64,000 bases of DNA from a virus, in IMG/VR virus record IMGVR_UViG_3300044452_000161. One strand, given 5' to 3'. This document shows, piece by piece, positions 12,209-27,707 of the stretch (position 1 is its first letter; every line of letters starts with the position of its first letter). A program made the translations under genes and the position numbers. Below the pieces are notes generated by a model. It had not been told where the DNA came from and did no database searches. It saw nothing but the letters and a program-made list of their open reading frames with translations.

Positions 12209-12379
12209 TCATTGATCCACCTCACAAGACAAAACACCGTTGATTTGATCCGCAAAGGCTTGCCAATCTAGGACGCGCGCGGCGCAATCTTGCGGCGTCA
12301 AATCGTGGTCCAGAACCGCGACCGCGTTGCCGTGTGGTATTGCAGCGGTGAGGAAAAGGGCAAGGGTTTGGGCTAACAT
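12209..12379 (-). CDS. small secreted or membrane hypothetical protein
   Basis: start moved to MLAQT ATG 12379 with GGAG RBS; hydrophobic N-terminus. Confidence 0.65.
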   Translation of the reverse strand: MLAQTLALFLTAAIPHGNAVAVLDHDLTPQDCAARVLDWQAFADQINGVLSCEVDQ

Positions 12380-12485
12380 GTGGTGACTCCTTTCAAGGGA
12401 AAAAGGCGCGCTGACGCGCGCCCTATCGGTTAGAAATGCCCCAGCACGACAAGCATGCATGCGGCGAAAAAGAGAATAATCACAT

Positions 12486-13235
12486 TCAAGCGGCAACCCT
12501 TTCGGCAAAGGCTTTAACTTTGGCCTTGCTACCATGTGCGGGGATAAAGACGCTTGCCTTGTTTGGGCTAGACGTTCCACCGCACGCGAGACATTGCGCG
12601 CAGTTTACTTTTTTTCCGGCCTCTTCACTAGCAGGGCAAAGGAATTCGCCGCGCGCGTGTTTTTCCGCGAACGTTCCGACTCGGAATGTGCGGTAACCCA
12701 TTGCTTGCGCCGCTAGCGCCTCACAAGCGGAGTCGGCGCTTGCCATGCAATACTTTGCAAAGCCAGGGTCACAATTCAACCATTGGTGAGTGTAACCCGT
12801 GCCCTTGTCAGCGTGAACCAAAGCACATTCCCAAACCCAAAGCGGGACGGCGGCAGGGTCACCATATGCGCCCAAACGGACATTACGTTGCGCGAGGTGA
12901 AGCTTTCCTAAATCCGCAGCAAGTGGATACTTACCCGCGCGGTAGGTTTTCCAGACGCTAAGCGGCGCTTGAAACACTGTCACATAGCAAGAACGCGAAA
13001 CGTTCTTACCGTCTACAATTTCACCACGATGCGGACACTTGCCACAGATCGATTCATCATCGCCAGTGTGAATGGCTTCATGAGGTGCAATGTCTTGACG
13101 CAAAATCCACGTTTGAATCAGATTGCCGGTTTTTGCGTTTTGGGAAGAACGACCTTTGATACCGGTTGCAATGACCACGATAGGCTTACCGTCTATCTCG
13201 CTAGGGCCTTCCCACAAAATTACTCCGTTTGCCAT
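12486..13235 (-). CDS. Cys-rich putative metal/Fe-S-binding phage protein
   Basis: CGKCPHR..CYV, VRLGAYGDP, YTHQW, CPAS...NCAQCLACGG motifs; 249 aa. Confidence 0.8.
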   Translation of the reverse strand: MANGVILWEGPSEIDGKPIVVIATGIKGRSSQNAKTGNLIQTWILRQDIAPHEAIHTGDDESICGKCPHRGEIVDGKNVSRSCYVTVFQAPLSVWKTYRAGKYPLAADLGKLHLAQRNVRLGAYGDPAAVPLWVWECALVHADKGTGYTHQWLNCDPGFAKYCMASADSACEALAAQAMGYRTFRVGTFAEKHARGEFLCPASEEAGKKVNCAQCLACGGTSSPNKASVFIPAHGSKAKVKAFAERVAA

Positions 13236-13238
13236 GTG

Positions 13239-13481
13239 TTAACCCTCCACACTTGTGGTTGAGAGTTTTTCAATGACCCAATCTACTTCGATTCCGTATT
13301 CGTTTATCAGATTGACGAGGTCTTCTTCGTTTTTTGGTTCGTCACAGTCATAGGCACCCGCGACCCAATCCATATCGTCAAGCAAGGCTTTTTCAGCGCT
13401 TTGTCTGTTTTGGAATATGTGACCGGGTCCAATCGTTCCGATTACGTAGTCAGACCTTACTATTACAATGTATCCAGCCAT
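13239..13481 (-). CDS. hypothetical protein
   Basis: 80 aa, GAGG RBS, own promoter upstream. Confidence 0.75.
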   Translation of the reverse strand: MAGYIVIVRSDYVIGTIGPGHIFQNRQSAEKALLDDMDWVAGAYDCDEPKNEEDLVNLINEYGIEVDWVIEKLSTTSVEG

Positions 13482-13501
13482 GTCAGTTTTCCTCTATATA
13501 G

Positions 13502-13612
13502 CGTTTCGGTATTGTCAGAATAAGTGACACATGGGTGAGTCGCAAGAACAAAATGTCACATTTTGTGATTGACGAATGTTAGCGAATCGGACAAATTCAA
13601 CTTACCGAAACG
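13502..13612. promoter_or_regulatory. divergent sigma70-type promoter pair with TGTCA-N7-TGACA box (13513-13529), GANTC sites and ACCGAAACG leader motifs
   Basis: minus strand TTGCGA-17-TATTCT; plus strand TTGACG(13569)-17-CAAATT. Confidence 0.65.
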
Positions 13613-13633
13613 CCAAATGAAAGGTTTACTGAC

Positions 13634-13759
13634 ATGGCACCACATTCACATATGCATGAACATTTCCCTCGCGGGCGGCATGGCGGAAAAGACGCTCGCC
13701 GCGCCGCACGACGCCTTAAACACGCTCAGCGCGCCCTTTTCGCGGGTACATACTCATGA
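13634..13759 (+). CDS. 41 aa basic hypothetical protein (not in ORF track)
   Basis: MAPHSHMHEHFPRGRHGGKDARRAARRLKHAQRALFAGTYS; AAAGG RBS; ATGA overlap with next gene. Confidence 0.65.
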   Translation: MAPHSHMHEHFPRGRHGGKDARRAARRLKHAQRALFAGTYS

Positions 13760-14061
13760 GCACATATCCCCGTCCAAAAACGCTTGATCCTAGCCTAGTG
13801 GCGATTTTGTTGGACGCTGTAGGCACGCAATTTTTGACTGTGGAATATGTCAAAAAAGACGGGAACATAGGCCGCACGAATGGCTTGCTACGCGCCACGT
13901 CGCGCCTTGTGGGCAATGCACGGGGGCAGACACAAGGAAACGCAATGAAGGATCGCGGGCAAGTGTGGATTGCCAAAAGTCGCGGGGGAAGCGCGAGCTT
14001 CTTTCTTGATCGTGTGACCTCAATTCAGTGTCGCGGGGCAGGAATAGACGCACGCGCCTAA
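13756..14061 (+). CDS. hypothetical protein (FLTVEYVKKDG motif, SH3/WYL-like fold possible)
   Basis: 101 aa; motif typical of small early phage proteins. Confidence 0.75.
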   Translation: MSTYPRPKTLDPSLVAILLDAVGTQFLTVEYVKKDGNIGRTNGLLRATSRLVGNARGQTQGNAMKDRGQVWIAKSRGGSASFFLDRVTSIQCRGAGIDARA

Positions 14062-14082
14062 CGGCTTCAAAAAGAATGACAT

Positions 14083-14105
14083 GGCCCGCTAACGCGGGCC
14101 TTTTC
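14083..14105 (+). terminator. intrinsic terminator
   Basis: GGCCCGC-TAAC-GCGGGCC followed by TTTT. Confidence 0.75.
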
Positions 14106-14318
14106 ACTTACACGCGCCAGAAAATATGGCCAGATTCCGCACTCCTAGCCCGTCCCCTACTTGCCTTGTCGGCTTTCCTGACCTCACATACACAGTAATG
14201 CGATTCTAGCTGTCTGATCAATCACAATAAGACAGATTTTGTGACAAATTGTACTTGCGGCAGGCAAGCGAATCGGACACAGTGAGGATACCGAAACGCA
14301 AATCATGGGAATTGACCA

Positions 14319-14570
14319 ATGAGTAACGAACAGAAAACACGCCTTGTAAACGTAACCGCTACGATGATTTCTGACCTTGCCGCCACCGTGCGTGTGCCCA
14401 GTGATGTCACGGATGATCAAGTGTTAGAATGGTATCGGGACAACGGCGCGTCCGGAGAATTCATTGAGGACGGATGGGGCGCTTGGGAATGGGGAAGTGC
14501 AAGCTCTGTAGAGACCAATGAGGTAGAGGATGGTGCGGCCATCCACGATCTCACGGGGGAATTTGCGTGA
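14319..14570 (+). CDS. acidic hypothetical protein
   Basis: 83 aa downstream of GANTC-type promoter. Confidence 0.75.
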   Translation: MSNEQKTRLVNVTATMISDLAATVRVPSDVTDDQVLEWYRDNGASGEFIEDGWGAWEWGSASSVETNEVEDGAAIHDLTGEFA

Positions 14571-15139
14571 TGTTGGAAGAGGTGAAATTCAGTGTAACGT
14601 TCACTGCGTCGTGTGATGTGGAATACGCACCGACAGAACAACGGCAGCGATTCAGTAATTACATCGAAAGGGCTATATCTGAAGGGTGGACTGAATTTGG
14701 TATTGATTTGATAGATGCCACGGTGGGGCGAACTGTACCAGAGTCAGAAATCTACGGCACAAATCTGCAACCTGATCCGTTAGAGCTATTGGATCACAGC
14801 ACCGTAGCGGAGAACGCTATGTGTTTGTGGGAAGCCTATTTGGACGCAGGACCTGTAGAGACGCCAGACACCACCGAAGGATGGCTCAAAAGCCTTCGAT
14901 TGTGGCACGAAAGTGTGGGGTTTGCCGAGGCGCGTACCCATTTGTCGCGGTTTGCTGTGTCTGTAGAGAAAGCATTCGAAGAGGCGACAGCGGCAGGCTA
15001 CGGTGATCCGTTTGATTGGGAATTCTGCCCTTGGTTTTTGTCTGCCTGTATTGATTGGACAGCAAGCACTCCGACGCTGAACCCGGATTATTTGAAGCTA
15101 TCAAAAGCAATTGGAAAGGCGTTTGGCAATGCGGCCTGA
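14567..15139 (+). CDS. hypothetical protein
   Basis: 190 aa, GTGA overlap with previous gene. Confidence 0.75.
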   Translation: MMLEEVKFSVTFTASCDVEYAPTEQRQRFSNYIERAISEGWTEFGIDLIDATVGRTVPESEIYGTNLQPDPLELLDHSTVAENAMCLWEAYLDAGPVETPDTTEGWLKSLRLWHESVGFAEARTHLSRFAVSVEKAFEEATAAGYGDPFDWEFCPWFLSACIDWTASTPTLNPDYLKLSKAIGKAFGNAA

Positions 15140-15368
15140 CTTTGAAATCCTGAACTATTGGACCATGTGGCTTGTATATCCCAAGACAGAAGCAGCAGCA
15201 GAACATGCAAAGATAGTGTTCCCTGACAGGGAGTGGCTTGGGCCAATGGTGGCGTGTGAGGCGTGTCAACTAGAGAGTACCGCACAACGGCTGCGAGCAG
15301 ATGGTTTCATTGTATCTGTTGATGGTGCAACGGGGGCGATACCGGACGTGTTACCTATGTTTGCCTAA
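15129..15368 (+). CDS. hypothetical protein
   Basis: start moved to MRPDF ATG 15129. Confidence 0.65.
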   Translation: MRPDFEILNYWTMWLVYPKTEAAAEHAKIVFPDREWLGPMVACEACQLESTAQRLRADGFIVSVDGATGAIPDVLPMFA

Positions 15369-15445
15369 GAGATGTCATAAATACTTGCCTAATGGGCGCG
15401 AATCTTGTAAGAATAACTTACCGAAACGCTCATTAGGACAAGTCT

Positions 15446-15691
15446 ATGGCATACGCAAATATCAATCTAACAATTGAAACAAAGGCCGCTTCGTTTGATA
15501 TTGAGGTGGTTGCAGAGGGTGAAATCGTGACCGGGGGAAGCAATCGCTACGGTAGCGATGAGCCAGCTTACTGTGAGGTGCAGGATATGAGGGTTTATCG
15601 CAAAGACTTCTCACCTCTTCCGCCAATGCTGCGCGATCACATTCTTGATCGATACGATGATATCCTCACGGATCATATCGTCCACGCTTAA
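15446..15691 (+). CDS. hypothetical protein
   Basis: 81 aa, AGGA RBS, own promoter. Confidence 0.75.
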   Translation: MAYANINLTIETKAASFDIEVVAEGEIVTGGSNRYGSDEPAYCEVQDMRVYRKDFSPLPPMLRDHILDRYDDILTDHIVHA

Positions 15692-16492
15692 CTAAGCAAA
15701 AACAATCTAAGTGTTTAGGGCCTTCCCTGCGTGACAGCAGCGGAAGGCTTTGCTGTGTCTTGTATCAAGTAAAGCGTAGAAGAAATGTGTTGACAAACCT
15801 GGAATCAAAGAGGGACCCAACGGGGGGTATGGGGGTGGGGTGATTCGCGCGCGTAGGTGCTACACGAATTTATGTGGCGTACTTGATGGAATCCGGGGGA
15901 CCCTGGAGAAACTGGCACCCCCCTTTGTTCATGAAATATGCCGTTAAAAAAAAAATTTCGGAGTTATCAAAATGGTGTTGCTGAAATGTCACAATTTATG
16001 ACAAGGCGAGATGATCAGCGGCAATGTTGACGTTTTGACCCGTTGTTCAGTCAGAAATATTGACATTTTAGGGGGGTTGGACTAAGTCAGGTTCACCGAA
16101 ACACCTTTTCCCCCCTCATTTTCACGATTTTTAGGGCCTCGAGGTAACCAATCCGGCGAATTTTGTCCGCTGTAAAAACCTCTAGAAGGCCATTTGACAG
16201 AAATACTGTCATTTTTGCGTTGACGGGTAAGTAAGAATCACTTAAACACATCTTCACGGACGCCAATCGCGGTGTTCGGTGATAGGTACGCCTGGCGGTG
16301 ACAGCAAATCTGGCAGGTGGTGAGTAATAGGATTGTTTCACTAACCATGAGGCAGTCTCGCCAGTTTGGCGAACGTTTTTTGACATAGATGTGTGGTGCA
16401 TCGTTTATATTCTGAAAACACAACTGGAACGAGTTGTGTACACTTGTAGGACGACACGTTTCGACGCCGAGAGCCGATAATCGAGTGAATTT

Positions 16493-16569
16493 GGGGCGTT
16501 GGTCTAGCGGTCGAGGATACTGCACTTTCAATGCGGTGGTCACGGGTTCGAATCCCGTACGCCCTACCA
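16493..16569 (+). tRNA. tRNA-Glu(TTC)
   Basis: cloverleaf, loop CT-TTC-AA, encoded CCA. Confidence 0.92.
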
Positions 16570-16574
16570 TTATT

Positions 16575-16677
16575 CAGATACTTTGCAGGTGCACTCCTCG
16601 ATGTTTTGTTCAGTTTCCATCGAGTTTGAGCGGGCGTTTCGGTCATTCTCCGCTCGAGTGCATCTTTGAAGTGTCTG
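16575..16677 (+). ncRNA. three-way-junction structured RNA candidate
   Basis: long terminal stem enclosing CTCGATG/CATCGAG and GAGCGG/CCGCTC helices; strand assumed from flanking tRNAs. Confidence 0.5.
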
Positions 16678-16684
16678 TTAATTT

Positions 16685-16760
16685 GGTGTCATAGCTCAGT
16701 TGGTAGAGCACCCGGCTCATATCTGGGAGCGCGGTGGTTCGAACCCACCTGACACCACCA
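16685..16760 (+). tRNA. tRNA-Met(CAT), elongator-like
   Basis: cloverleaf, loop CT-CAT-AT, CCA. Confidence 0.88.
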
Positions 16761-16862
16761 AACACAAGTTCCTGGTACAGAGGTCCTCAAAACTCGGTTT
16801 TCGAAGACCGACAACCCTCTGTTAAAACGCTCGGGTCGAAGGCGGGTAGTGCCCATAACGAA

Positions 16863-17135
16863 TACGACGTAGCTCAATCGAAAGCCAAACGTCAGTATGA
16901 AAGGCCTAGAAAACGGCGAGATAAGGCTCCCAGTAGGCGTGATCGTAACAAATGCAAGGTGTAAGAAACGTTGAGCGGGTTAAACGCCCGACAGACGATC
17001 CCGAACGAACAGGGAGATAAGGCGCTCGGAGTACGAAAGTTCGAGTACTACTGATTGTAGCGAGTCGCGGGTAGAGCACCAGCATTCACATTGCATCAGG
17101 GCTGGAGATGCGGGGTTCGAGGCCCGCCGTCGTTG
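16863..17135 (+). ncRNA. tRNA-like RNA with about 190-nt D-loop insertion and 17-nt anticodon loop
   Basis: ACGACG/CGTCGT acceptor, GCTC/GAGC D stem, CCAGC/GCTGG stem, TTCGA T loop. Confidence 0.6.
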
Positions 17136-17193
17136 CCGATTAGGTTTGCAGTCTGCGCAGACGATTATAGCCGGGTTAACACGGCGAAAGATA

Positions 17194-17260
17194 TGACGTT
17201 CTGGCTTCGTCGGCAGAGGAAGCTGGAGTGGAATCTAAGGTTCGAGTCCTTAGGGCGTCA
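17194..17260 (+). ncRNA. tRNA-like element lacking one arm
   Basis: TGACGTT/GGCGTCA acceptor, CTAAGG-TTCGAGT-CCTTAG T arm, single internal hairpin. Confidence 0.5.
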
Positions 17261-17273
17261 GGCAAACCTATAT

Positions 17274-17349
17274 CAGGGTGTAGCTCAGTTGGTAGAGTGC
17301 CGCACTTGGAATGCGGAGGTCGTCGGATCGTGACCGACCACCCTGACCA
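17274..17349 (+). tRNA. tRNA-Pro(TGG)
   Basis: cloverleaf, loop CT-TGG-AA, CCA. Confidence 0.92.
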
Positions 17350-17706
17350 AACTCAAACGATGTCGTCCGAAACCGTTCCTAGAACCGTTCGGAGGGCTAT
17401 CGACTGCGCGGTGGCATCCCTGCAGGTAGTACCTGTGAACGTCGCAGTATAAAATGGGTCGCCACACTAACAGAAAACTCGCTTACTCCGGAGTATTACC
17501 TCCCGAGGCGCATAGGTAAGACGCAGTATAGCGGGGGTTTGGTTGGAGTTTGTAGCTGGGGAGCAGACTAGCCTCAGCATCCAAGTTTCGGAGAGACTGC
17601 GCCGAGAGGGGCCGCGCCATAGTTTACTCCAAGTAGTTCACATTCAGCGCCGAAGTATGTCCCCCTGTGTGATTGAAAAGGCTTCTGATCAAACCATTCA
17701 CCCTTT

Positions 17707-17782
17707 TGCGGGATGGAGAAGTAGTCATCTCGCTTGGTTCATGTCCAAGAGATCGTCGGTGCAAATCCGGCTCCCGCAACCA
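17707..17782 (+). tRNA. tRNA-Met(CAT), initiator-like body
   Basis: body resembles bacterial fMet tRNA but T1-A72 is paired and the anticodon stem lacks three G-C pairs. Confidence 0.8.
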
Positions 17783-17930
17783 TTCTGAAATAGCCTGCCC
17801 TCTCCTTCACACCCTCCCGGCAGGTGAACCTCCGGTGCCCAAACCGCAGTCCTCGCGGGCGTCCGAAAGGGCAGACGTTGGTGTCACGTTTTACCTGGCA
17901 CCAAGAGTAGGCTCGGAGGAAAAAATCTAT

Positions 17931-18033
17931 ACTGGCGTAGCTCAGAGGTAGAGCGCTGAGACGTAAACACTCTCGGAGACGCAGAGACACGGGCAGCACA
18001 CCGTGTTGGGTTCAAATCCCGCCGCCAGTTCCA
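17931..18033 (+). ncRNA. aberrant tRNA-like RNA (9-nt anticodon loop, extra arm)
   Basis: perfect acceptor ACTGGCG/CGCCAGT plus TCCA, canonical D arm, TTCAAAT T loop. Confidence 0.65.
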
Positions 18034-18051
18034 ACCCCGAAAATGTAACCC

Positions 18052-18603
18052 TTGGAGGATTATTTTATGTTAGCTGGTATCTTTGCCTTGGGTTTCTGGC
18101 CCTTGGCGTTCTTTGTTCTGTGTATTGCAGGCCTTTTCTGGGGCACAATCGCAGAGTCAGCCGTTGGACTAGCCATCGTCATTGCGATTGCTGTAGCGGC
18201 AGCAACTTTTTCTGGATACGACCCCCTTGGGTATCTTTTCCAGTCCCCGTCTCTATTCTTTTCGGGAGTGGTTCTTTACCTCCTGCTGGGCCTTGGATGG
18301 GCTGGTTGGAAATGGCGACGCTACTTGAAAAAGCCTGAGATTTTCAAACAGATTTCTCAAGCCAAACAGGACTTTTTCGACCAGTCTCCGTCACTGAGTA
18401 TTGATGACTTCATGGACAGTGAACTTTACCCAGACGTAGCTTGGCTTTCGAACAACAAAGATCGGATCATTAGCTGGTGGATGATGTGGCCACTGTCTGC
18501 ATTCTGGTATGTCCTCGGCGACATGCTCGTCGAAGCCTTCAACTGGCTGTACGGCAAGACAGCAGGCTTGTTCCGAAGCATCAGCCGATCAACGATTTCA
18601 TAG
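18052..18603 (+). CDS. membrane protein
   Basis: 183 aa with multiple hydrophobic segments; GGAGG RBS suggests ATG at 18067. Confidence 0.8.
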   Translation: MEDYFMLAGIFALGFWPLAFFVLCIAGLFWGTIAESAVGLAIVIAIAVAAATFSGYDPLGYLFQSPSLFFSGVVLYLLLGLGWAGWKWRRYLKKPEIFKQISQAKQDFFDQSPSLSIDDFMDSELYPDVAWLSNNKDRIISWWMMWPLSAFWYVLGDMLVEAFNWLYGKTAGLFRSISRSTIS

Positions 18604-18749
18604 ATTTTTTGCCGGAGCACGGCGCATCAACTGACGCGCATTCCTTCTCGGATGTAAGTCGCGTCAACTTTTCAGATATACGTCAAAGCGTATATTCATC
18701 AGTTATACGCTTCAGCGTATGGAGCTTTATGATCCGTAACACATAATCG

Positions 18750-19253
18750 ATGTTTATGTGTTATCGACCATAAAACTATGGAATTCCCTTCGGGGAATGG
18801 GCTGTATGAGGTCCTTAGAATATGACCGGGTGACCGGAGAAAAGGGAAAGGCGCTCCCCGCGTCCCCGCCTGAAAAGGTTCAATCATACAAACTCCGATC
18901 CACTTCGCCGGTAGCAGTGCCCCGTAGCGTTGTGTGTCCAGCCCCAACTGGGCAATAGTCGGTAAGTTTGGGAACCCGGTCCGAAAGGATAAGTGAAGCC
19001 TCAAAAGGGCGGATCGAAGTAGATTGGCGTCTACACCCTGTTCATGCCAGCCAAACGAACGATGAGGATTAAGGAGTAGATCGAACACAGTCCAACTGTT
19101 CGCGCAGAAGGGCGAGAGATCATCATGAACGAGGAAGGGCCGACAAGGCCCCCATCCGTGAAATGACGTCGACTAGGCCGCAAGCCGAAAGACATAGATA
19201 CGTGTTGTATTCTTGGTCTAACAAGACTGGGAGCAACCGAGCCAGCACGTGTC
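18750..19253 (+). ncRNA. large structured ncRNA candidate (ROOL/GOLLD-class hypothesis)
   Basis: about 500 nt without credible plus-strand ORF, many hairpins, inside tRNA cluster. Confidence 0.5.
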
Positions 19254-19265
19254 AGGGGTTAAACT

Positions 19266-19340
19266 ACGTTAGTAGCTCATTTGGATAGAGCAACAGTCTG
19301 ATAAAACTGTGGGTAGTGGGTTCAATTCCCATCTTACGTC
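19266..19340 (+). tRNA. tRNA-Ile(GAT)-like with 8-nt anticodon loop (atypical or pseudo)
   Basis: ACAGT-CTGATAAA-ACTGT arm; acceptor with one T-T mismatch; no encoded CCA. Confidence 0.6.
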
Positions 19341-19344
19341 AAAA

Positions 19345-19811
19345 AGCAAAAGACTGGCTCGGTGTCGCGTGAAAGGTGATTAATGCCCGGCTCTTCGGAG
19401 AACTGGGTGGGTTGGAGGCCGCAAGCCAAAGACCTTTGTTCAAGATCAATTCGTAGATCGTTAGCGCGGTCGAACTGCTCGCAAGGCAGACGTGGAGAGA
19501 CAGGACGATTATCGCGACATGACAGGACTACAGCCTTGGTCCTCAAAAACGGCATCACTGAGTGGTACATTGGCACCCTTGACGGGGCCAACGTGGATAT
19601 CTCCTAACCAAGCCTGTAGCAGGGTCCTTGGATACGGGTAGGTAAAGCTATCTCATGGCGACGGTGTAATCTCAGCCGCTGCTACCCATAATCAGCTTTT
19701 TCTGGGGTGACCGGACGCAGGCTTTAGGCTCGTAACCGGGTCTGCGGTCCTATTCTCTCACAGGGCGAACCGGGCGGAGTGAGAGCCGCCCCCACTTATC
19801 CGGCCCCACCA
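19345..19811 (+). ncRNA. second large structured ncRNA candidate ending in CCCCACCA
   Basis: TGTCGCG/CGCGACA enclosing multiple hairpins; GGGG-(TGA)-CCGG pairs with terminal CCGGCCCC. Confidence 0.45.
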
Positions 19812-19849
19812 AAAGAAGCTGTTCAATGAAAGAGTTAAGGAGTGGAGAT

Positions 19850-20089
19850 ATGAAGGTACGACTTACTGTAACGGTCGATATAGAAGACCCAAATTACTAC
19901 CCTTTGGACGAAAATGGATGGGCCTGCGGCGATCCTATCGACAAATTGGATCGAGACGAGGTTGGACAGTATGTATCCGAAGCTATCCTGACTTGGGGTG
20001 GATCAGGACCTCCCCATGGTGTCTTCAATCCTTCGAACATCAACTCCGTCCGTGTACAAGGTACCAACTTCGACACAACGTATCAGTGA
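19850..20089 (+). CDS. hypothetical protein
   Basis: GGAG RBS before MKVRL. Confidence 0.7.
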   Translation: MKVRLTVTVDIEDPNYYPLDENGWACGDPIDKLDRDEVGQYVSEAILTWGGSGPPHGVFNPSNINSVRVQGTNFDTTYQ

Positions 20090-20100
20090 GGAAATCATCT

Positions 20101-20334
20101 ATGATCGACATCAAGCGCGCCGTCACAGGCGGCAGAAAAGTGGTTTTCTCTCATTATGCTGATGGAGACCTTTGGTATAAAACTGAGTTTGGTGAACAGT
20201 TTCCAGTACCGGTCAGCGATGCGGGAACAGCAACTTTTCACGCCAAAGACAAAGCACTCTTGTTCATGCGCTATATGCGTAAGTGGAACGAAAACACTAC
20301 GGCACAAACGATGGAACGTTTGGCCTGTGTCTGA
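20101..20334 (+). CDS. conserved-type phage hypothetical protein
   Basis: MIDIK start, GAGG RBS; LWYKTEFGEQFPVPV..G.ATF...DKA..FMRYMRK motif. Confidence 0.75.
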   Translation: MIDIKRAVTGGRKVVFSHYADGDLWYKTEFGEQFPVPVSDAGTATFHAKDKALLFMRYMRKWNENTTAQTMERLACV

Positions 20335-20344
20335 TCCCTTCGGG

Positions 20345-20416
20345 GATAAAACGCACGTATATCTACGGAGCTTGGATGATTTCTGGACCCGGGGGCGGTA
20401 CCCGGCGGCTCCACCA
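20345..20416 (+). ncRNA. ssrA: tmRNA acceptor piece (permuted two-piece gene); 5' end approximate
   Basis: T arm with GGCGGTA loop then CGGCTCC-A-CCA; pairs with GGGGCCG at 20511 giving G3-U70. Confidence 0.85.
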
Positions 20417-20510
20417 CGTGCACACTGTTCTCAAAACTGCCTTGGAAAGACACGCGAGACGATGCATGCCTCTCGTTTGTTCGCGGAAAAATCTACAGTG
20501 TGTACTTGAT

Positions 20511-20720
20511 GGGGCCGATATAGGATCGACAGGGTTTGAAGGGAAAGTGGCGTGTCGGTGAGAAACCACCGTTATCGGTTCAAAAACCATAGTTGCAAAT
20601 GTAAACGCAGCACCATCGGAGATGGCACTTGCAGCCTAACGCTTGTCGTTACGCTGCCTGAAAGCTTCCCTCCATTGGGCTTCCCGGCGTGCCTAGAAAC
20701 AGAAACGTCGGACCAGTTTC
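20511..20720 (+). ncRNA. ssrA: tmRNA coding piece; tag (A)ANVNAAPSEMALAA* at 20595-20639; 3' end approximate
   Basis: GGGGCCGATATAGGATCGAC 5' end; ATAGTTGCA resume context; LAA terminus. Confidence 0.88.
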
Positions 20721-21052
20721 TCTAGAGGGTTGAGTTCCCCACACAATATGAGTGGTGCATCATCTTCGGTATCGCCGAAACCGCGTTTGACGCAGGTAAC
20801 CGCATACCCAGTTGAACGACAAGAATATTGGAAACCCAACTCGCCGCCGGGCGTGTGACTTAGCGGGTTACAAATAGGTATCACACACCTTTTCGAACGA
20901 GAAGCGGTGGTGGCCCCGTTGGTAGGGCCATCCTTGACTTGCCGCCTCGTCTCTCCGGCTCCGTGAGAGAACTTAGTGAACGGGCCGCGCACGTAGTATA
21001 ACTCCGAAACCGTCCGCAGCGAAATGTGGAGCCGGAGCCGTTACCGGCAGAT

Positions 21053-21262
21053 TTACTTCTTACCCTTACGGCCTTTGGAACTTGGCAGTTTGGAAAGAGG
21101 ACGCTTCTTGAGGCCGATGGCTACACGAAGTTCGTTCACATAGTTCTCGGCTTTTTCGAGTTCTTGCATCGCAAGAGCTTTCTTCTTGTCGGCGATTGCC
21201 TGGGTCAGTTCGTCCAGTTCGCCGATGTCGAGAGAGGAAATGTCGATTGATTTGTTAGCCAT
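21053..21262 (-). CDS. truncated H-NS-like protein (oligomerisation domain plus basic tail)
   Basis: IDISSLDIGELDELTQAIADKKK...ELEKAE pattern of H-NS/HvrA N-termini; no DNA-binding C domain. Confidence 0.6.
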   Translation of the reverse strand: MANKSIDISSLDIGELDELTQAIADKKKALAMQELEKAENYVNELRVAIGLKKRPLSKLPSSKGRKGKK

Positions 21263-21316
21263 GAGTTTCATCCAGTTTCTTGAGACTGGATTGCGATAGC
21301 AGGAAAGGTCTCCGAC

Positions 21317-22324
21317 ATGAATACCCAAATCTACCGGACAACCGCTGGTTCTTTCTTGTTTGGTGCATCAACGCCTTCGTCAGATCGCGATTACAAGTCG
21401 GTTCATCTGCCAGATGCGCGTTCAATCCTGTTGGGAACAGCGAACAAAGTGAGTGATAAGAGCACTGGAGGTAAGGATCGGAAGAACTCAGCCGATGATG
21501 TTGATGAGACGTCTTTTCCGCTTCAAAAGTACCTCAAAAATCTTGCGAGTATGGAAACCAATGCCATCGAAATTTTGTTTTCATATCGTCTAGAAGATTT
21601 TCCCGATGATGGAACGTTCGGATGGTATATTTGGAACGAAATCTATCAAAATCGGATGAGAATTCTCAACAGCAACAAGCAGAGCTTTCTTGGATACGCC
21701 AAGGCGCAGGCCATGAGGTACAGCGTTCGAGGAGAACGTCTGAAAGCGCTGAAAGCAATAATTGAATTCCTGAAGTCCCAGGATGCTTCAGCCCGGATCA
21801 GAGACCTCAATCTCAGCCCTGTGTTGTGGGAATTTGAAGGAATTCGAGTGCATGATCGGCAAATTCGCGATCAAAACGGCAGTTTTTACGCGATGCCGCA
21901 CATTTGTGTTCACGGGAGGCAAACACCGATCACTTCTACTGTGTCAGAAGCGCTGAAAGTCTACGAAAAGCCTTTGAAGAACGCGAGCCATCGAGCCGAA
22001 GCGGCTGTAGAGGATGGAGCGGACTGGAAAGGCATGTATCATGCTCAACGGATCGTACACGAAGGCATAGAGTTGTTTTCGACAGGTAACCTTGTCTTTC
22101 CTTGCCGACACGCTCCGTATTACCTTGATATTCGAAACGGTGTTATTTCTCTTGATGAGGTTTTGAACCGTTTTGACGAGTCTTTACTTGAACTCGAAGG
22201 AATAGACCCAGCGAAACACTTTCGAAGCCACGCCGATCACAAGTGGATCGATGAGTTTGTTTATGCTGCGCATGAACAGCAGGTCGTTTCTGCATACGAA
22301 AGTAACATTATTCAAGAACAATAG
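21317..22324 (+). CDS. Pol-beta superfamily nucleotidyltransferase (RlaP-like)
   Basis: GSFLFGASTPSSDRDYK catalytic motif; helical C-terminus WKGMYHAQRI. Confidence 0.8.
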   Translation: MNTQIYRTTAGSFLFGASTPSSDRDYKSVHLPDARSILLGTANKVSDKSTGGKDRKNSADDVDETSFPLQKYLKNLASMETNAIEILFSYRLEDFPDDGTFGWYIWNEIYQNRMRILNSNKQSFLGYAKAQAMRYSVRGERLKALKAIIEFLKSQDASARIRDLNLSPVLWEFEGIRVHDRQIRDQNGSFYAMPHICVHGRQTPITSTVSEALKVYEKPLKNASHRAEAAVEDGADWKGMYHAQRIVHEGIELFSTGNLVFPCRHAPYYLDIRNGVISLDEVLNRFDESLLELEGIDPAKHFRSHADHKWIDEFVYAAHEQQVVSAYESNIIQEQ

Positions 22325-22504
22325 GCCTTTGGCACGCGGTTAGAAGGATGTGCCATCCGACGGGGAAGTACCAACGCCGACTGAGTTGCATCTACAGTTC
22401 GCGGTCCGTGAGACCCTAGGAGTGAGCCGGGCATTAGGAGGGGCCATCCACGCGGTCCCGCACCCGGTAGGCGTGGGTACGGCGGTGCTGCAACACCGTC
22501 CTAT

Positions 22505-22593
22505 GGGTAGGTTCAGCCGCTGGTCGCGGCATGCGGGTTGTAACCCCGTTCCGTGTAATGCGGGCGCAGTTCGATTCTAGCACCTACCCACCA
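22505..22593 (+). tRNA. tRNA-Tyr(GTA), non-canonical 8/4-like fold
   Basis: loop TT-GTA-AC, long variable arm, 8-bp acceptor, 4-bp bulged T stem, A-CCA. Confidence 0.75.
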
Positions 22594-22601
22594 GTTTTCA
22601 C

Positions 22602-22677
22602 GTGCAGGTAGCTCAGTTGGTAGAGCGCGGGATTGAAGTTTCTGGCGTCGGGGGTTCGAGTCCCTCTCTGCACACCA
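22602..22677 (+). tRNA. tRNA-Phe(GAA)
   Basis: cloverleaf, CCA. Confidence 0.9.
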
Positions 22678-22832
22678 ATTCGCAAAGGGCATCAGGAGAG
22701 CGTTTGCCGCAAGCACATAGCTCTTCTTTCGGCGGCGGTGTCAGCGGCGACACCGTAACTCACGAGGCCTGTGAAGGCCGCTCCGAACCCCTGGGCTAAG
22801 GAAGCGCCGCTAGTGAGATTTAACAAGGAGGT

Positions 22833-23471
22833 GTGATGTCCAAACGTTCTGACTTTATTCGTATCGAGAAGGACAAGTACATGACCCCGGCTGAGGGTGC
22901 CACACCTCTTATTCGCTTTTTGCCAACCGGCATCTTCCACTACGTTGAGCCGTGTGCTGCGCAAGGTGGGCTTGTTGCACATTTTCTCCATCAATCTGGT
23001 GGGCGTTCTCGCTGCACCCACATGTCAGATATTGAACCAGAGATCGCTTCTATCAAGCGAATGGATGCCAGAAACCTTGGTCCTGAGCACCTCTTTGATG
23101 CGGACTTGATAATTACGAACCCGCCTTGGGATCGATCTAAGAAGTCCGGGTATCTGCTGCACGAATTGATCGAGGTATTTTCTAACCTGCGGCCTACCTG
23201 GTTGTTGTTTGACAGTGACTGGGTCCAGACAGTCCAAGCGGGTCCTTACATGTCGAGATTGGTGGCAACCGTGTCTGTTGGACGCCTGAAGTGGATGCCT
23301 GGAACCAAACATACCGGAAAAGACAATTGCCAGTGGCACCTGTTCGCGAAGAACGCACGAGAGATCACTGATGCACCAGAGCACTTCGGTCGAAATGTGG
23401 GTCCATATCCTCACTTTGTTAGTCGATACATGCGATTGGCATACCGTGAGAGGGTGACAGAAGCAGCATAA
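22833..23471 (+). CDS. DNA N6-adenine methyltransferase-like protein
   Basis: DKYMTP, EPCAAQG (motif I-like), IITNPPW (motif IV). Confidence 0.8.
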   Translation: MMSKRSDFIRIEKDKYMTPAEGATPLIRFLPTGIFHYVEPCAAQGGLVAHFLHQSGGRSRCTHMSDIEPEIASIKRMDARNLGPEHLFDADLIITNPPWDRSKKSGYLLHELIEVFSNLRPTWLLFDSDWVQTVQAGPYMSRLVATVSVGRLKWMPGTKHTGKDNCQWHLFAKNAREITDAPEHFGRNVGPYPHFVSRYMRLAYRERVTEAA

Positions 23472-23474
23472 TTT

Positions 23475-23550
23475 ACCCGGGTAGCTCAGTGGTAGAGCGG
23501 CGTCCTTACACGTCGTGACAGCGGTGGTTCGATCCCACCTCCGGGTACCA
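23475..23550 (+). tRNA. tRNA-Val(TAC)
   Basis: cloverleaf with one anticodon-stem mismatch, CCA. Confidence 0.88.
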
Positions 23551-23557
23551 AACAGAT

Positions 23558-23633
23558 GGGGCCTTAGCTCAGCGGTAGCAGCGCTTGCTCGACACGCAAG
23601 AGGTCACTGGTTCGATCCCAGTAGGCCCCACCA
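23558..23633 (+). tRNA. tRNA-Val(GAC)
   Basis: cloverleaf, CCA. Confidence 0.9.
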
Positions 23634-23669
23634 AACAATCTAGAAAACCTAGTTTTCTCCAAGTTTCTT

Positions 23670-23743
23670 GGGGGACGTCTATGGGTAGCGGCTGATCCTT
23701 GCAAGATTGGCGTCACGGGGTTCGATTCCCCGGTCTTCCACCA
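23670..23743 (+). tRNA. tRNA-Ala(TGC) with reduced D arm
   Basis: loop CT-TGC-AA, G3-U70, A73-CCA. Confidence 0.75.
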
Positions 23744-23750
23744 TCATCAT

Positions 23751-23826
23751 TCGGGTGTAGCTCAGTTGGTAGAGCAAACGGCTGTTAACCGTTGTGTCGG
23801 GGGTTCGAAACCCTCCTCCCGAGCCA
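23751..23826 (+). tRNA. tRNA-Asn(GTT)
   Basis: cloverleaf, G73-CCA. Confidence 0.92.
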
Positions 23827-23844
23827 ATTCAAAAGGAGTGCCTC

Positions 23845-23964
23845 ATGGTAACGTTTCTTATCGGTGTCGCTGTCGGCACTTTCATCCCAACCCCTTACCA
23901 AGCTGCGATCCACGCAGTTGTGAAGAAGGCGTGGACCTGGTTTACGTCTTTGACGAAATCTTGA
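23845..23964 (+). CDS. 39 aa membrane peptide (not in ORF track)
   Basis: MVTFLIGVAVGTFIPTPYQAAIHAVVKKAWTWFTSLTKS; AAGGAG RBS. Confidence 0.65.
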   Translation: MVTFLIGVAVGTFIPTPYQAAIHAVVKKAWTWFTSLTKS

Positions 23965-24163
23965 CTAACGGCCTGTAGAGGCCTATCAACATGGCATTCG
24001 CATGTGTAGTACCCCTACAAGTGCGTTTCGGTGGCGTTTTCGTGAGAGGTGTGCGCCTGAAAAACCTCTCACATTATTTTTGCCTTGTGATGTAAGTAAT
24101 ATTGACACACTTTGGGTGTTCATGTATTGTTTTACTAACAAATGAGGCCTGGCGTCACATAAA

Positions 24164-24502
24164 ATGTCAAAGAAAGAAACCGCTTTCTGTCCGACGTGTG
24201 GAAGACCAAATCCCATACGGCACTCTCCTGAATGGCTTATAGCTAGCTTTCGCGGGGTCATGGCTAAGATTCTGGCGTGCTTGATACAGTGTCGCAGAGA
24301 ACATCGGGCAGCGACAAAAGATGAACTCATCTTGTCCGCTTACCCTGACCACGGAGACGAGCCACCTATTGGTGGTGGCGATGTGGTTATTCAAACAATC
24401 CAACAAGCTCGCAAAAGGCTTCAGAAGATGGGTTGGGACGTTGTTGGGCCTAAGACGACAGGACATGGATACATGCTTGTATCCCTGGAACGAAACCTTT
24501 GA
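24164..24502 (+). CDS. zinc-knuckle plus winged-helix-like putative regulator
   Basis: CPTC; TKDELILSAY...IQQARKRL..GW....GHGY resembles OmpR-type wHTH. Confidence 0.6.
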   Translation: MSKKETAFCPTCGRPNPIRHSPEWLIASFRGVMAKILACLIQCRREHRAATKDELILSAYPDHGDEPPIGGGDVVIQTIQQARKRLQKMGWDVVGPKTTGHGYMLVSLERNL

Positions 24503-27631: not shown

Positions 27632-27707
27632 GCTTCCGTAGCTCAGTGGACAGAGCGCCGGTCTTCTACACCGGGCGTCGTGGGTTCGAATCCTACCGGG
27701 AGTACCA
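27632..27707 (+). tRNA. tRNA-Arg(TCT)
   Basis: cloverleaf, CCA. Confidence 0.92.

What the first reader, a model, noticed from the sequence alone, without database searches (positions are those of the whole stretch)
16490..22830. Dense island of unassigned structured RNAs interleaved with tRNAs
Seen: most of this 6.3 kb is non-coding, yet only 6 canonical-length tRNAs fall in it. Nearly every spacer folds into multi-helix structures (detailed separately), alongside tmRNA, a nucleotidyltransferase and a truncated H-NS. Inference: a phage RNA toolkit released from a polycistronic precursor by tRNA processing, potentially an undescribed RNA-based counter-defence or translation-control system. 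This is the strongest candidate for new biology in the window.
Basis: partly seen in the sequence, partly recalled or inferred. Interest (0 to 1): 0.85.

Follow-up and report, generated by a model that had tools for sequence, protein, structure and literature searches.

The report
Roseophage tRNA operon with GOLLD RNA
This gene-poor stretch is the front of a marine phage's tRNA operon; its biggest "unknown" RNA is a known giant phage RNA (GOLLD), and next to it sits at least one undescribed small folded RNA that may switch off the phage's early genes.

Summary
The window comes from a relative of the ~149-kb roseophages DSS3phi8, MD18 and DSS3_MAL1.

**Assigned parts**
- 18781-19678 is a GOLLD RNA (Rfam RF02032: 126.5 bits, E 7e-34, whole model matched). 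A tRNA-like module sits in its linker.
- Nine related phages or contigs carry GOLLD at the same place. Five score above Rfam's cut-off.
- 115 of 217 predicted pairs show compensatory changes.
- Four metatranscriptomes hold GOLLD contigs.
- Also present: a permuted tmRNA, eight tRNA or tRNA-like genes (ARAGORN missed tRNA-Tyr at default settings), and an RlaP-family RNA-repair nucleotidyltransferase.

**Conserved small elements with no family**
- A 105-nt long-stem element after tRNA-Glu has compensatory changes in 17 of its 21 stem pairs. Its exposed GCGUUUCGGU is the exact complement of ACCGAAACGC, the motif at the predicted start of the early mRNAs.
- A cloverleaf-like element follows GOLLD.
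- A 66-nt element precedes tRNA-Tyr.

**Unsupported**
About 1.4 kb of spacers is not conserved, folds no better than coding controls, and includes a tRNA-Val-like gene split by a 191-nt insertion. The "truncated H-NS" was not confirmed.

Verdict: mainly a new member of a known kind, with one interesting new small RNA. The scan has noted similar phage tRNA/small-RNA islands on other DNA before.

The parts
16381..16416 (+). Sigma-70-like promoter of the tRNA operon (TTGACA, 18 nt, TTTATA), about 75 nt upstream of tRNA-Glu
   Evidence: Read by eye. The consensus scan did not list it. Inference only.
16493..16569 (+). tRNA-Glu (UUC)
   Evidence: ARAGORN; Rfam tRNA 64 bits.
16570..16684 (+). Conserved long-stem RNA element. 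A 21-bp closing stem (about 16575-16677) encloses two hairpins; GCGUUUCGGU sits in a 16-nt loop at 16634-16643. I call it the anti-leader element.
   Evidence: MFE z -6.5 to -7.9, and more stable on the + strand. Eight homologues show 97% of cells paired and compensatory changes in 17 of 21 pairs; 0 of 500 shuffles reach this. Covariance models found copies in L014, L007/L005, L009 and L006 that were not in the training set, always downstream of tRNA-Glu. No Rfam family matches at E up to 5.
16685..16760 (+). tRNA-Met (CAU)
16863..17137 (+). tRNA-Val(CAC)-like gene interrupted in its D loop by a 191-nt insertion (16879-17069). Probably a disrupted or decaying tRNA gene.
   Evidence: When the 191 nt are removed in silico, ARAGORN at default settings calls a tRNA-Val(cac). 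No Rfam hit for the insert. Not conserved in relatives.
17219..17259 (+). Acceptor/T-arm minihelix-like remnant (weak)
   Evidence: Rfam mascRNA-menRNA 16.4 bits, E 2.8, which is not significant. It has a T-arm-like GGUUCGAGUCC.
17274..17349 (+). tRNA-Pro (UGG)
17350..17706 (+). Unassigned spacer with no evidence of function
   Evidence: z +0.43. No nucleotide or protein homologue in any relative. No Rfam hit. No RNA contig.
17707..17782 (+). tRNA-Met (CAU), second copy
17931..18033 (+). Aberrant 100-nt tRNA-like gene with an oversized anticodon loop and a long extra arm
   Evidence: Rfam tRNA 35.6 bits against a cut-off of 29. ARAGORN finds it only with relaxed settings.
18067..18603 (+). CDS of 178 aa, a hydrophobic protein of unknown function
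   Evidence: Preceded by a GGAGG ribosome-binding site. 34% identical homologues lie in L009 and L010. No Pfam or PHROG hit.
18604..18780 (.). Two long A/U-rich hairpins or palindromes (18677-18721 and 18724-18777) directly upstream of GOLLD. Role unknown: a processing site, a terminator or an operator.
   Evidence: z -4.7 and -5.1 on the two strands. Inverted repeats I1 and I3. Not conserved in relatives.
18781..19678 (+). GOLLD RNA, 898 nt: 5' domain 18781-19196, 3' domain 19197-19678
   Evidence: RF02032 at 126.5 bits, E 7e-34, model positions 1-416 of 416. Syntenic copies score 128.9-186.9 bits in eight relatives, and L015 holds one by alignment. An 8-sequence alignment gives 217 pairs, 115 of them with compensatory changes. 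Contigs 100% identical to it occur in four metatranscriptomes.
19266..19340 (+). tRNA-like module in the GOLLD linker, with an 8-nt anticodon loop CUGAUAAA. The orthologue is tRNA-Arg(UCU) in four relatives and has anticodon UCA in the 98%-identical contig L008.
   Evidence: ARAGORN; Rfam tRNA 50.3 bits; alignments. Three of the 16 differences between the window and L008 over 1031 nt lie in this loop.
19693..19822 (+). Cloverleaf-like four-way junction just after GOLLD. Its closing stem includes GGGG...CCCCACCA.
   Evidence: Conserved in L008 and in L012/L013: 44 pairs, 4 with compensatory changes. An RNA contig covers 19670-19802 in run X14. Absent at this place in DSS3_MAL1 and MD18.
19850..20089 (+). 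CDS of 79 aa, unknown function, absent from the close relative L008
   Evidence: Ribosome-binding site and ATG; indel against L008.
20101..20334 (+). CDS of 77 aa, phrog_20427, unknown function
   Evidence: An RNA contig covers 20105-20298.
20324..20730 (+). Two-piece (permuted) alphaproteobacterial-type tmRNA, tag ANVNAAPSEMALAA
   Evidence: ARAGORN; RF04321 at 124.6 bits and RF01849 at 117.2 bits.
21053..21262 (-). CDS of 69 aa with a coiled-coil-like N-terminus and a basic tail. Conserved beside the NTase in relatives. Not shown to be H-NS.
   Evidence: No family hit. An RNA contig covers 21085-21252.
21317..22324 (+). RlaP-family Pol-beta-type nucleotidyltransferase, an RNA 3'-end repair enzyme
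   Evidence: Pfam PF10127 at E 3.6e-5; phrog_388 at E 2e-66. 32 homologues, almost all with PF10127. Biochemistry of the family: PMC12776372.
22413..22478 (+). Conserved small structured element upstream of tRNA-Tyr
   Evidence: Conserved in L008, L012 and L014: 18 pairs, 7 with compensatory changes. No Rfam family.
22505..22593 (+). tRNA-Tyr (GUA) with a long variable arm, missed at default settings
   Evidence: ARAGORN -ps90. Orthologous to the tRNA-Tyr of relatives.
22602..22677 (+). tRNA-Phe (GAA)

Best explanation
The stretch is the promoter-proximal part of the tRNA operon of a DSS3phi8-like roseophage. Most of its non-coding DNA is made of RNA genes of known kinds.

**Known kinds**
- An 898-nt GOLLD RNA (18781-19678) with a tRNA-like module in its variable linker.
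- A two-piece tmRNA.
- Eight tRNA or tRNA-like genes, followed by an RlaP RNA-repair nucleotidyltransferase.

**How it most likely works**
- Inferred: the operon is transcribed from a sigma-70-type promoter near 16381 and cut up by the host's tRNA-processing enzymes.
- Inferred from the solved homologue: GOLLD assembles into a 14-subunit RNA cage, with the linker tRNA-like modules inside.
- Inferred from the families' known roles: tmRNA, the extra tRNAs and RlaP keep translation running in the infected cell.

**Conserved elements with no described family**
- The best supported is a 105-nt long-stem RNA directly after tRNA-Glu. Its exposed GCGUUUCGGU is the exact complement of ACCGAAACGC, the conserved motif at the predicted first bases of the phage's early mRNAs.
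- My preferred reading of it, a hypothesis at about one in three, is an antisense RNA that pairs with early mRNA leaders and helps shut early genes off.
- The other two are a cloverleaf-like element after GOLLD and a 66-nt element before tRNA-Tyr.

**The rest**
The remaining spacers, about 1.4 kb, are lineage-specific filler: decaying tRNA genes, hairpins and regulatory DNA.
For: **Phage family and synteny**.

**GOLLD**
- Full-length Rfam match with all signature motifs.
- Eight syntenic copies score 128.9-186.9 bits.
- Conservation runs exactly over 18781-19677.
- 115 of 217 pairs carry compensatory changes.
- 8 of the 10 phage-specific contigs from four metatranscriptomes fall on GOLLD or its 3' extension, which together are about 12% of the stretch laid.
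- The published features match: about 830 nt, a variable 5' domain and a conserved 3' domain, a marine example downstream of Met-tRNA, and tRNAs in the linker, which lies inside the cage (PMC12286853).

**tmRNA and tRNAs**.

**RlaP**; PMC12776372.

**Anti-leader element**
- Stem covariation.
- New copies found by the covariance models, with the + strand scoring 60-105 bits in the seven copies used to build model R2 (37 bits in L006a, which was found anew), against 29-33 bits on the minus strand.
- ACCGAAACG occurs 7 times in the window against 0.85 expected.
- The motif lies downstream of the early promoters in the window and in L001, L002, L005/L007, L012 and L014. Its complement lies inside the element in all 10 copies.
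- In those copies the motif is predicted unpaired, with probability 0.47-0.87.
- The promoter TTGACA-N17-TAAGTC-N6-ACCGAAAC at 16060 places the motif at +1.

**Filler**: ordinary folding z-scores, no homologues, no Rfam hits, and the split tRNA-Val-like gene.
Against: - The window's GOLLD scores below Rfam's curated cut-off (126.5 against 150 bits).
- The RNA evidence consists of assembled contigs from metatranscriptomes of a synthetic community. It cannot show RNA ends, strand or abundance, and DNA carry-over is not formally excluded.
- Cage formation, tRNA-punctuated processing and the promoter are inferred, not shown.
- For the antisense idea, the start of the early mRNAs is predicted, not mapped. 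If ACCGAAACG is a promoter element rather than transcribed sequence, the pairing cannot happen.
- The leader motif is invariant, so there is no covariation between leader and element. Complementarity in the window is only 10-11 nt.
- For the spacers without homologues, absence of evidence is not evidence of absence. The only other copy of spacers 16570-18030 is 99.9% identical.
Confidence: 0.8

Rival explanations
1. One reading: the spacers are a set of undescribed structured RNAs that together form a new RNA-based counter-defence or translation-control toolkit, released from one precursor by tRNA processing.
For: - Four non-tRNA elements show conservation with compensatory changes, and three of them match no Rfam family.
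- Related phages carry further conserved non-tRNA blocks in the same spacers.
- The RlaP repair enzyme and the tmRNA sit in the same operon.
- The anticodon loop of the GOLLD-embedded tRNA changes fast between near-identical phages, as one might expect of a decoy for anticodon nucleases.
Against: - The largest element belongs to a described class, GOLLD.
- About 1.4 kb of the spacers is neither conserved, nor unusually stable, nor seen in RNA contigs.
- Nothing links the elements functionally beyond being neighbours.
- No defence-related protein family was found here.
Confidence: 0.15
2. The long-stem element after tRNA-Glu is only an RNase III-type processing hairpin that separates tRNAs in the precursor. 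The ACCGAAACG/CGTTTCGGT motif is a DNA-level site (a promoter or operator element) that happens to lie in it in reverse orientation.
For: - A 21-bp stem with conserved bulges resembles RNase III substrates such as the processing sites of the T7 early transcript (my own knowledge).
- The motif is tightly coupled to promoters at a fixed distance, so it could be part of promoter recognition.
- On double-stranded DNA the two orientations are the same site.
Against: - The motif lies in the interior of all 10 copies, in regions predicted unpaired, although the interior is otherwise very variable.
- It is always antisense to the operon's direction, whereas at promoters it is always sense to the gene that follows.
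- No promoter geometry (TTG ... GAATC at the fixed distance) accompanies the copy inside the element.
- A second conserved reverse copy near 24024 carries complementarity that in DSS3_MAL1 and MD18 runs from the motif through the ribosome-binding site.
Confidence: 0.3
3. The element after tRNA-Glu is a miniature 6S-RNA-like decoy. It presents the template-strand sequence of the early promoters' start region inside a long duplex and so titrates the RNA polymerase holoenzyme that reads the early promoters.
For: - The shape is a long duplex with an open interior that carries the complement of the early start-site sequence.
- 6S RNA works by mimicking an open promoter (my own knowledge).
Against: - The interior consists of hairpins rather than a 6S-type central bubble.
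- At about 105 nt it is roughly half the size of 6S RNA.
- It gives no match to the Rfam 6S families.
- This is purely an analogy.
Confidence: 0.05

Closest known systems
GOLLD RNA (Rfam RF02032; Weinberg et al. 2009; cryo-EM structure of env-38 in Kretsch et al. 2025, PMC12286853)
   Same: - A full-length match to the conserved 3' domain with its signature motifs.
- A length of about 0.9 kb, with a more variable 5' domain.
- Encoded in a phage beside a tRNA cluster, downstream of a tRNA-Met.
- A tRNA in the variable linker.
- Dense covariation.
   Different: - The score is below Rfam's cut-off in this phage (126.5 against 150 bits).
- The host group (roseobacters, Alphaproteobacteria) is not named in the papers I read.
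- The linker tRNA has lost a normal anticodon loop here (8 nt). It reads UCA in a 98%-identical relative and UCU in more distant ones.
- In this lineage a cloverleaf-like element follows GOLLD directly.
Small stable RNAs of the phage T4 tRNA gene cluster (species 1 and 2, rnaC and rnaD), and the phage tRNA islands with tRNA-derived small RNAs that this scan noted earlier (e1-147168, e1-3261413)
   Same: Non-tRNA structured RNAs encoded between the tRNAs of a phage tRNA operon, and presumably released by the same processing.
   Different: - No sequence or structure relation.
- The comparison with T4 rests on my own knowledge.
- The element here carries a motif complementary to the early leaders, which is not known for the T4 RNAs.
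Trans-acting antisense small RNAs with an exposed seed, including phage-encoded ones; closest for how the element after tRNA-Glu may work
   Same: A conserved 10-nt seed in an unpaired loop, complementary to the 5' leader of a set of mRNAs that share that leader.
   Different: - It is embedded in a tRNA operon inside a 21-bp closing stem, rather than being a stand-alone gene with its own terminator.
- The targets would be the phage's own early mRNAs.
- Pairing has not been shown.
RlaP nucleotidyltransferases (Pfam PF10127; PMC12776372)
   Same: A family match. In the more distant phage contig L018 the homologue lies among RNA ligase and polynucleotide kinase-phosphatase genes, the classical RNA-repair context.
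   Different: - In this phage family it is not next to an RNA ligase. It lies next to tmRNA, GOLLD and tRNAs.
- The Pfam score is only just above the cut-off (24 against 23 bits).
- No solved homologue is detectable by sequence.

Membership tests
GOLLD RNA (RF02032) | Match to the Rfam covariance model at or above the curated gathering score (150 bits) | tested here: not met
   126.5 bits, E 7e-34, model positions 1-416 of 416. The shortfall comes from insertions (the 75-nt tRNA, longer loops), not from missing parts. Orthologues at the same locus score 150.7-186.9 bits in five relatives and 128.9-138.9 bits in three.
GOLLD RNA (RF02032) | Conserved 3'-domain sequence motifs and helices | tested here: met
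   AAAAAGCAAAAG, GAAAGGUGAUUAAU, UCACUGA, GUGGAUA and GGUGUAAUCUCAGCC are all present and aligned to the model at high posterior probability.
GOLLD RNA (RF02032) | About 800 nt or more, with a less conserved 5' domain and a universally conserved 3' domain joined by a variable linker that may hold a tRNA | tested here: met
   898 nt. The 5' domain (18781-19196) is conserved only within this phage group. The linker holds a tRNA in 5 of the 8 aligned sequences. Published description.
GOLLD RNA (RF02032) | Extensive secondary structure supported by covariation | tested here: met
   217 predicted pairs, 115 with compensatory changes, in 8 sequences.
GOLLD RNA (RF02032) | Encoded in phages or prophages, near tRNA clusters | tested here: met
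   It lies inside the tRNA operon of a DSS3phi8-like phage.
GOLLD RNA (RF02032) | Assembly into a 14-subunit RNA-only cage | not testable with these tools
   Known for env-38 only (PMC12286853).
GOLLD RNA (RF02032) | Present as RNA during infection | tested here: inconclusive
   Four metatranscriptome runs each hold contigs 100% identical to GOLLD, and 8 of the 10 phage-specific contigs lie on GOLLD or its 3' extension. Contigs show neither strand, ends nor level, and DNA carry-over cannot be excluded.
Two-piece (permuted) tmRNA (RF04321 / RF01849) | Model match above the cut-off, an acceptor piece upstream of the coding piece, and a tag reading frame | tested here: met
   124.6 bits (cut-off 47) and 117.2 bits (cut-off 50). 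ARAGORN calls a permuted tmRNA with tag ANVNAAPSEMALAA.
RlaP nucleotidyltransferase (PF10127) | Pfam match above the gathering score | tested here: met
   24.0 bits against a cut-off of 23, E 3.6e-5. 31 of the 32 homologues carry PF10127 in precomputed annotation. phrog_388 'nucleotidyltransferase' at E 2e-66.
RlaP nucleotidyltransferase (PF10127) | Adds one or two nucleotides to damaged RNA 3' ends | not testable with these tools
   Shown for two Pseudomonas enzymes (PMC12776372).
   No hit in Pfam (E up to 0.01), PHROGs or NCBIfam (E up to 1) for the 69-aa protein.
ROOL RNA, 6S RNA, group I intron and other Rfam families, for the remaining spacers | Any Rfam match | tested here: not met
   No match at E up to 5 over 16000-23500, nor at E up to 10 over 16761-17706, other than tRNA, tmRNA, GOLLD and chance-level hits.

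The most novel reading that the evidence does not exclude
DSS3phi8-like roseophages may switch off their early genes with RNAs made from the tRNA operon.

- Two conserved elements are involved: the long-stem element after tRNA-Glu (16570-16684) and a second element near 23990-24075.
- Both expose the seed GCGUUUCGGU.
- The seed would pair with the invariant first ten bases (ACCGAAACGC) of every early mRNA. In some relatives the pairing continues through the ribosome-binding site.
- The expected result is blocked translation or triggered decay of the whole early class at once.

Separately, the tRNA tethered inside the GOLLD cage evolves its anticodon loop so fast (UCU, UCA, then an 8-nt loop) that it may serve as bait for host tRNA-cleaving defences rather than as a decoder.
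Probability: 0.3. Interest if true: 0.8.

Novelty: new member of a known kind. Interest (0 to 1): 0.55.

Why it matters
**GOLLD**
- GOLLD is one of the largest bacterial or phage non-coding RNAs. Its cage structure has been solved, but its function is still unknown.
- This phage group offers culturable systems to test it: DSS3phi8, MD18 and RpAliso on Ruegeria and Phaeobacter.
- Close relatives naturally have or lack GOLLD, and have or lack the linker tRNA.
- GOLLD sits in a fixed neighbourhood with tmRNA and an RNA-repair enzyme, which points to a role in translation maintenance or tRNA protection.

**The element after tRNA-Glu**
- It is a well-supported, undescribed RNA motif.
- It comes with a concrete, testable hypothesis: antisense control of a whole class of phage mRNAs through their common 5' end.

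**A caution for readers of raw sequence**
About a quarter of this "RNA island" has no evidence of being structured RNA at all.

Tried and rejected
- **IMG/VR scan with the NTase**: no relative found.
- **Promoter and terminator consensus scan**: counts close to chance (promoter-like sites within 1 sd of the shuffles, terminator-like about 3 sd above) and no clear operon boundaries.
- **ARAGORN at very relaxed settings with introns**: calls appear everywhere, including inside CDS, so I did not use it as evidence.
- **Folding z-scores**: they do not even flag GOLLD (z about -1), so ordinary z-scores cannot exclude structure. I used them only against the claim that the spacers fold better than chance.
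- **Search for a diverged copy of spacers 16570-18030.** The only other contig (L019) is 99.9% identical with no differences there. No covariation test is therefore possible for 16761-17273, 17350-17706 or 17783-17930.
- **Protein-level search of all spacer ORFs against 17 related loci**: hits in 16761-17273 and 17350-17706 are confined to ORF ends that overlap the flanking tRNA genes.
- **Blocks conserved among the relatives' own spacers**: real, but not found in this window, so not pursued.
- **Reading the reverse ACCGAAACG copies as minus-strand promoters:** rejected, because the TTG and GAATC boxes are missing at the fixed distances. In the window only a 5-codon ORF follows the second copy.
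- **H-NS identity of the 69-aa protein:** no support.
- **PDB sequence search with the NTase:** nothing.
- I made no structure or complex predictions, because no claim here depends on them.

Full report
**What the window is.** The stretch matches the ~146-150-kb roseophages DSS3_MAL1, MD18, DSS3P8 (DSS3phi8), vB_RpoS-V10 and RpAliso, but only in patches of 70-80% identity. Their annotated maps show the same order: early genes, a tRNA cluster starting with Glu-Met-Pro-Met, a long unannotated gap, tmRNA, a nucleotidyltransferase, Tyr-Phe, then more tRNAs. I fetched further relatives from metagenomes through the nucleotidyltransferase protein. Two contigs are near-copies of the window: L008 (95-99% identical, covering 18792-23763) and L019 (99.9% identical, covering 12489-18658).

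**Checking the observation.**
- ARAGORN finds six tRNAs of ordinary length and a permuted tmRNA in 16490-22830. Rfam adds a 100-nt aberrant tRNA-like gene at 17931-18030. Slightly relaxed ARAGORN adds tRNA-Tyr at 22505-22593, which is orthologous to the tRNA-Tyr of the relatives.
- Five CDS look real: 18067-18603, 19850-20089, 20101-20334, 21053-21262 (minus strand) and 21317-22324. By my tally they cover about 35% of the stretch, so 'mostly non-coding' holds.
- The nucleotidyltransferase belongs to the RlaP family.
- The 'truncated H-NS' has no family support.
- Against dinucleotide shuffles, only three spacers fold unusually well: 16570-16684, 18604-18780 and 17783-17930. The others fold like coding controls. 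This measure does not flag GOLLD either, so it is a weak test in both directions.

**The main element is GOLLD.**
- An E-value-mode Rfam scan gives GOLLD (RF02032) at 19197-19678 with the whole model aligned, 126.5 bits and E 7e-34. All the conserved motifs are present, and a tRNA is inserted exactly in the model's variable linker.
- The score is under Rfam's cut-off of 150 bits. The same locus scores 150.7-186.9 bits in DSS3P8, V10, DSS3_MAL1, MD18 and contig L017, and 128.9-138.9 bits in L008, L012 and L014. L015 also holds a copy by alignment.
- Nucleotide conservation between the window and these relatives runs from 18781 to 19677 and stops there. That defines an 898-nt RNA whose 5' half is outside the Rfam model.
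- An alignment of eight full-length copies gives 217 predicted pairs, 115 of them with compensatory changes.
- RpAliso and contig L009 lack GOLLD but keep the tmRNA.
- The published description fits. GOLLD RNAs are phage or prophage RNAs often next to tRNA islands, with a conserved 3' region and a variable 5' region. The solved example is marine, 833 nt, and lies downstream of a Met-tRNA. It forms a 14-subunit cage whose unresolved linker points inward, and that linker sometimes contains a tRNA (PMC12286853).

**RNA evidence.** Thirteen public DNA runs hold this phage: one marine metagenome and twelve runs labelled synthetic metagenome. Four metatranscriptome runs hold 5-11% of the stretch's words. 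When laid on 15500-24500, ten contigs are phage-specific and 100% identical.
- Seven lie inside GOLLD (18794-19597).
- One lies on 19670-19802, with sequencing adapters at both ends.
- One lies on the 77-aa CDS and one on the 69-aa CDS.
- None lies on the unsupported spacers.

GOLLD and its extension are about 12% of the stretch laid, so by my own estimate this concentration is unlikely for DNA carry-over. Still, contigs cannot show ends, strand or level.

**The tRNA inside GOLLD.** The linker tRNA is tRNA-Arg(UCU) in DSS3_MAL1, MD18, L012 and L015. It has anticodon UCA in L008, and an 8-nt loop CUGAUAAA in the window. The window and L008 differ at 16 places in 1031 nt, and three of those lie in this loop. 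The window has a separate ordinary tRNA-Arg(UCU) at 27632. The module is therefore kept as a tRNA-shaped structure (50.3 bits) while its decoding end drifts or is under diversifying pressure.

**A new conserved element after tRNA-Glu.**
- The spacer 16570-16684 folds into a 21-bp stem that closes two hairpins (z -6.5). Several G-U pairs make the + strand the better folder.
- DSS3_MAL1, MD18 and L012 have the same architecture with a largely different stem sequence.
- Covariance models built from these found further copies in L014, V10/DSS3P8, L009 and RpAliso (two copies), always just downstream of tRNA-Glu. The + strand scores 60-105 bits in the seven copies that model R2 was built from, and 37 bits in the RpAliso copy it found anew, against 29-33 bits on the minus strand. 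L017 has one by eye.
- In eight copies 97% of cells pair and 17 of 21 pairs show compensatory changes. No shuffle out of 500 reaches this, and slid controls pair at 29-53%.
- The interior is variable except for GYGUUUCGG(U), which is predicted unpaired in all ten copies.

**Its link to the early genes.**
That motif is the exact reverse complement of the element's conserved loop.
- ACCGAAACG occurs seven times in the window against 0.85 expected.
- Four copies follow early promoters at a fixed distance, in the direction of the gene that follows. The same promoter-leader cassette recurs 1-6 times per locus in the early regions of L001, L002, L005/L007, L012 and L014, up to the ribosome-binding site.
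- A consensus promoter, TTGACA-N17-TAAGTC-N6-ACCGAAAC at 16060, places the motif at the transcription start.
- A second reverse copy lies at 24024-24032, outside the finding. It is conserved in nine loci as GCGUUUCGGUGSNGUUU followed by a hairpin whose stem covaries.
- In DSS3_MAL1 and MD18 the complementarity of this second element runs from the first base of the leader through the ribosome-binding site. Duplex energies are -26 to -43 kcal/mol against -14 to -22 for shuffled leaders.
- I therefore propose that both elements are antisense RNAs against the common early leader. This is an inference, and the rivals are listed separately: a processing hairpin plus a DNA-level motif, or a 6S-like decoy.

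**Two more conserved elements.**
- 19693-19822, just after GOLLD, forms a four-way junction closed by a stem that contains GGGG...CCCCACCA. It is conserved in L008 and L012, with 4 compensatory pairs among 44, and is covered by one RNA contig.
- 22413-22478, upstream of tRNA-Tyr, is conserved in L008, L012 and L014, with 7 compensatory pairs among 18.

Both rest on few sequences.

**What remains.**
- The spacers 16761-17273, 17350-17706, 17783-17930, 18604-18780, 20731-21052 and 22678-22835 have no homologue in any relative at DNA or protein level, no Rfam hit and no RNA contig.
- One of them contains the two halves of a tRNA-Val(CAC)-like gene separated by 191 nt in the D loop. With the insert removed, ARAGORN calls the tRNA at default settings. 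It also holds a weak acceptor/T-arm remnant.
- tRNA content between Glu and the second Met differs in every relative, so gain and decay of tRNA genes is the simplest source of this material.
- 18604-18780 consists of two long hairpins or palindromes right before GOLLD. They could be processing sites, but they are not conserved.

**Function of the module.** RlaP enzymes add one or two nucleotides to damaged RNA 3' ends and restore the chargeability of repaired tRNA (PMC12776372). In the distant phage contig L018 the homologue lies among RNA ligase and kinase-phosphatase genes. Together with tmRNA and about 28 tRNAs, the operon reads as a translation-maintenance and tRNA-repair kit. GOLLD is a conserved member of it whose role remains unknown.

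**Verdict.** The new items are an undescribed covarying element with a testable antisense hypothesis, two smaller conserved elements, and the fast-changing anticodon loop of the cage-tethered tRNA. The scan has noted comparable phage tRNA/small-RNA islands on other DNA. None overlaps this phage family.

Noticed in passing
window 23980-24090 (motif at 24024-24032, minus strand): This is a second conserved reverse copy of the early-leader motif. On the + strand it reads GCGUUUCGGUGGCGUUUUCG, followed by a hairpin with a covarying stem and a conserved loop. It is present in nine related loci. In DSS3_MAL1 and MD18 its complementarity to the early leaders extends through the ribosome-binding site.
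   Followed up: partly
window 12000-16260; L001 1-4400; L002 600-4400; L012 300-1450: The early promoters form a repeated cassette: TTGCG, about 8 nt, GCGAATC, about 15 nt, ACCGAAACGC, about 6-10 nt, AAGGA, then ATG. The window copies also carry an upstream TGTGACA box. The cassette is conserved across the phage family.
   Followed up: partly
window 20335-20730 compared with L008 1369-1790: The tmRNA is 11.6% divergent between the window and L008, with 7 indels, while the flanks differ by only 1-2%. This suggests mosaic exchange or fast change of the tmRNA, perhaps in its intervening segment.
   Followed up: no
L001 13412-13485 (DSS3_MAL1); L008 475-548: Relatives carry suppressor-type tRNAs. 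DSS3_MAL1 has a tRNA with anticodon CUA, annotated tRNA-Pyl. In L008 the tRNA inside GOLLD has anticodon UCA.
   Followed up: no
L006 3242-3307 and 3388-3463 (RpAliso): RpAliso lacks GOLLD. Just after its tmRNA it has two weak Y-RNA-like (YrlA) matches of 34.7 and 42.3 bits (cut-off 69), followed by a 718-aa hypothetical gene.
   Followed up: no
L001 6805-7025; L002 8178-8258 and 8624-8747; L009 2696-2792 and 3146-3225; L012 4556-4722; L005 4473-4552; L017 2599-2678: The relatives share several further conserved non-tRNA blocks of 80-120 nt between their tRNAs. One is a highly conserved block of about 85 nt just upstream of GOLLD, and it also occurs in L009, which has no GOLLD. None of these blocks is detectable in this window.
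   Followed up: partly
window 19823-20100 compared with L008 1030-1135: The 79-aa ORF (19850-20089) lies in a 278-nt segment that is replaced by 106 unrelated nt in the otherwise 98%-identical contig L008.
   Followed up: no
L017 2854-2983; L006 1101-1222; window 17931-18033: Over-long tRNA-like genes of 100-130 nt recur in this phage family, in the front part of the tRNA cluster: after the second tRNA-Met in the window and L017, after the first in RpAliso. Rfam tRNA scores are 35.6-47.9 bits.
   Followed up: no
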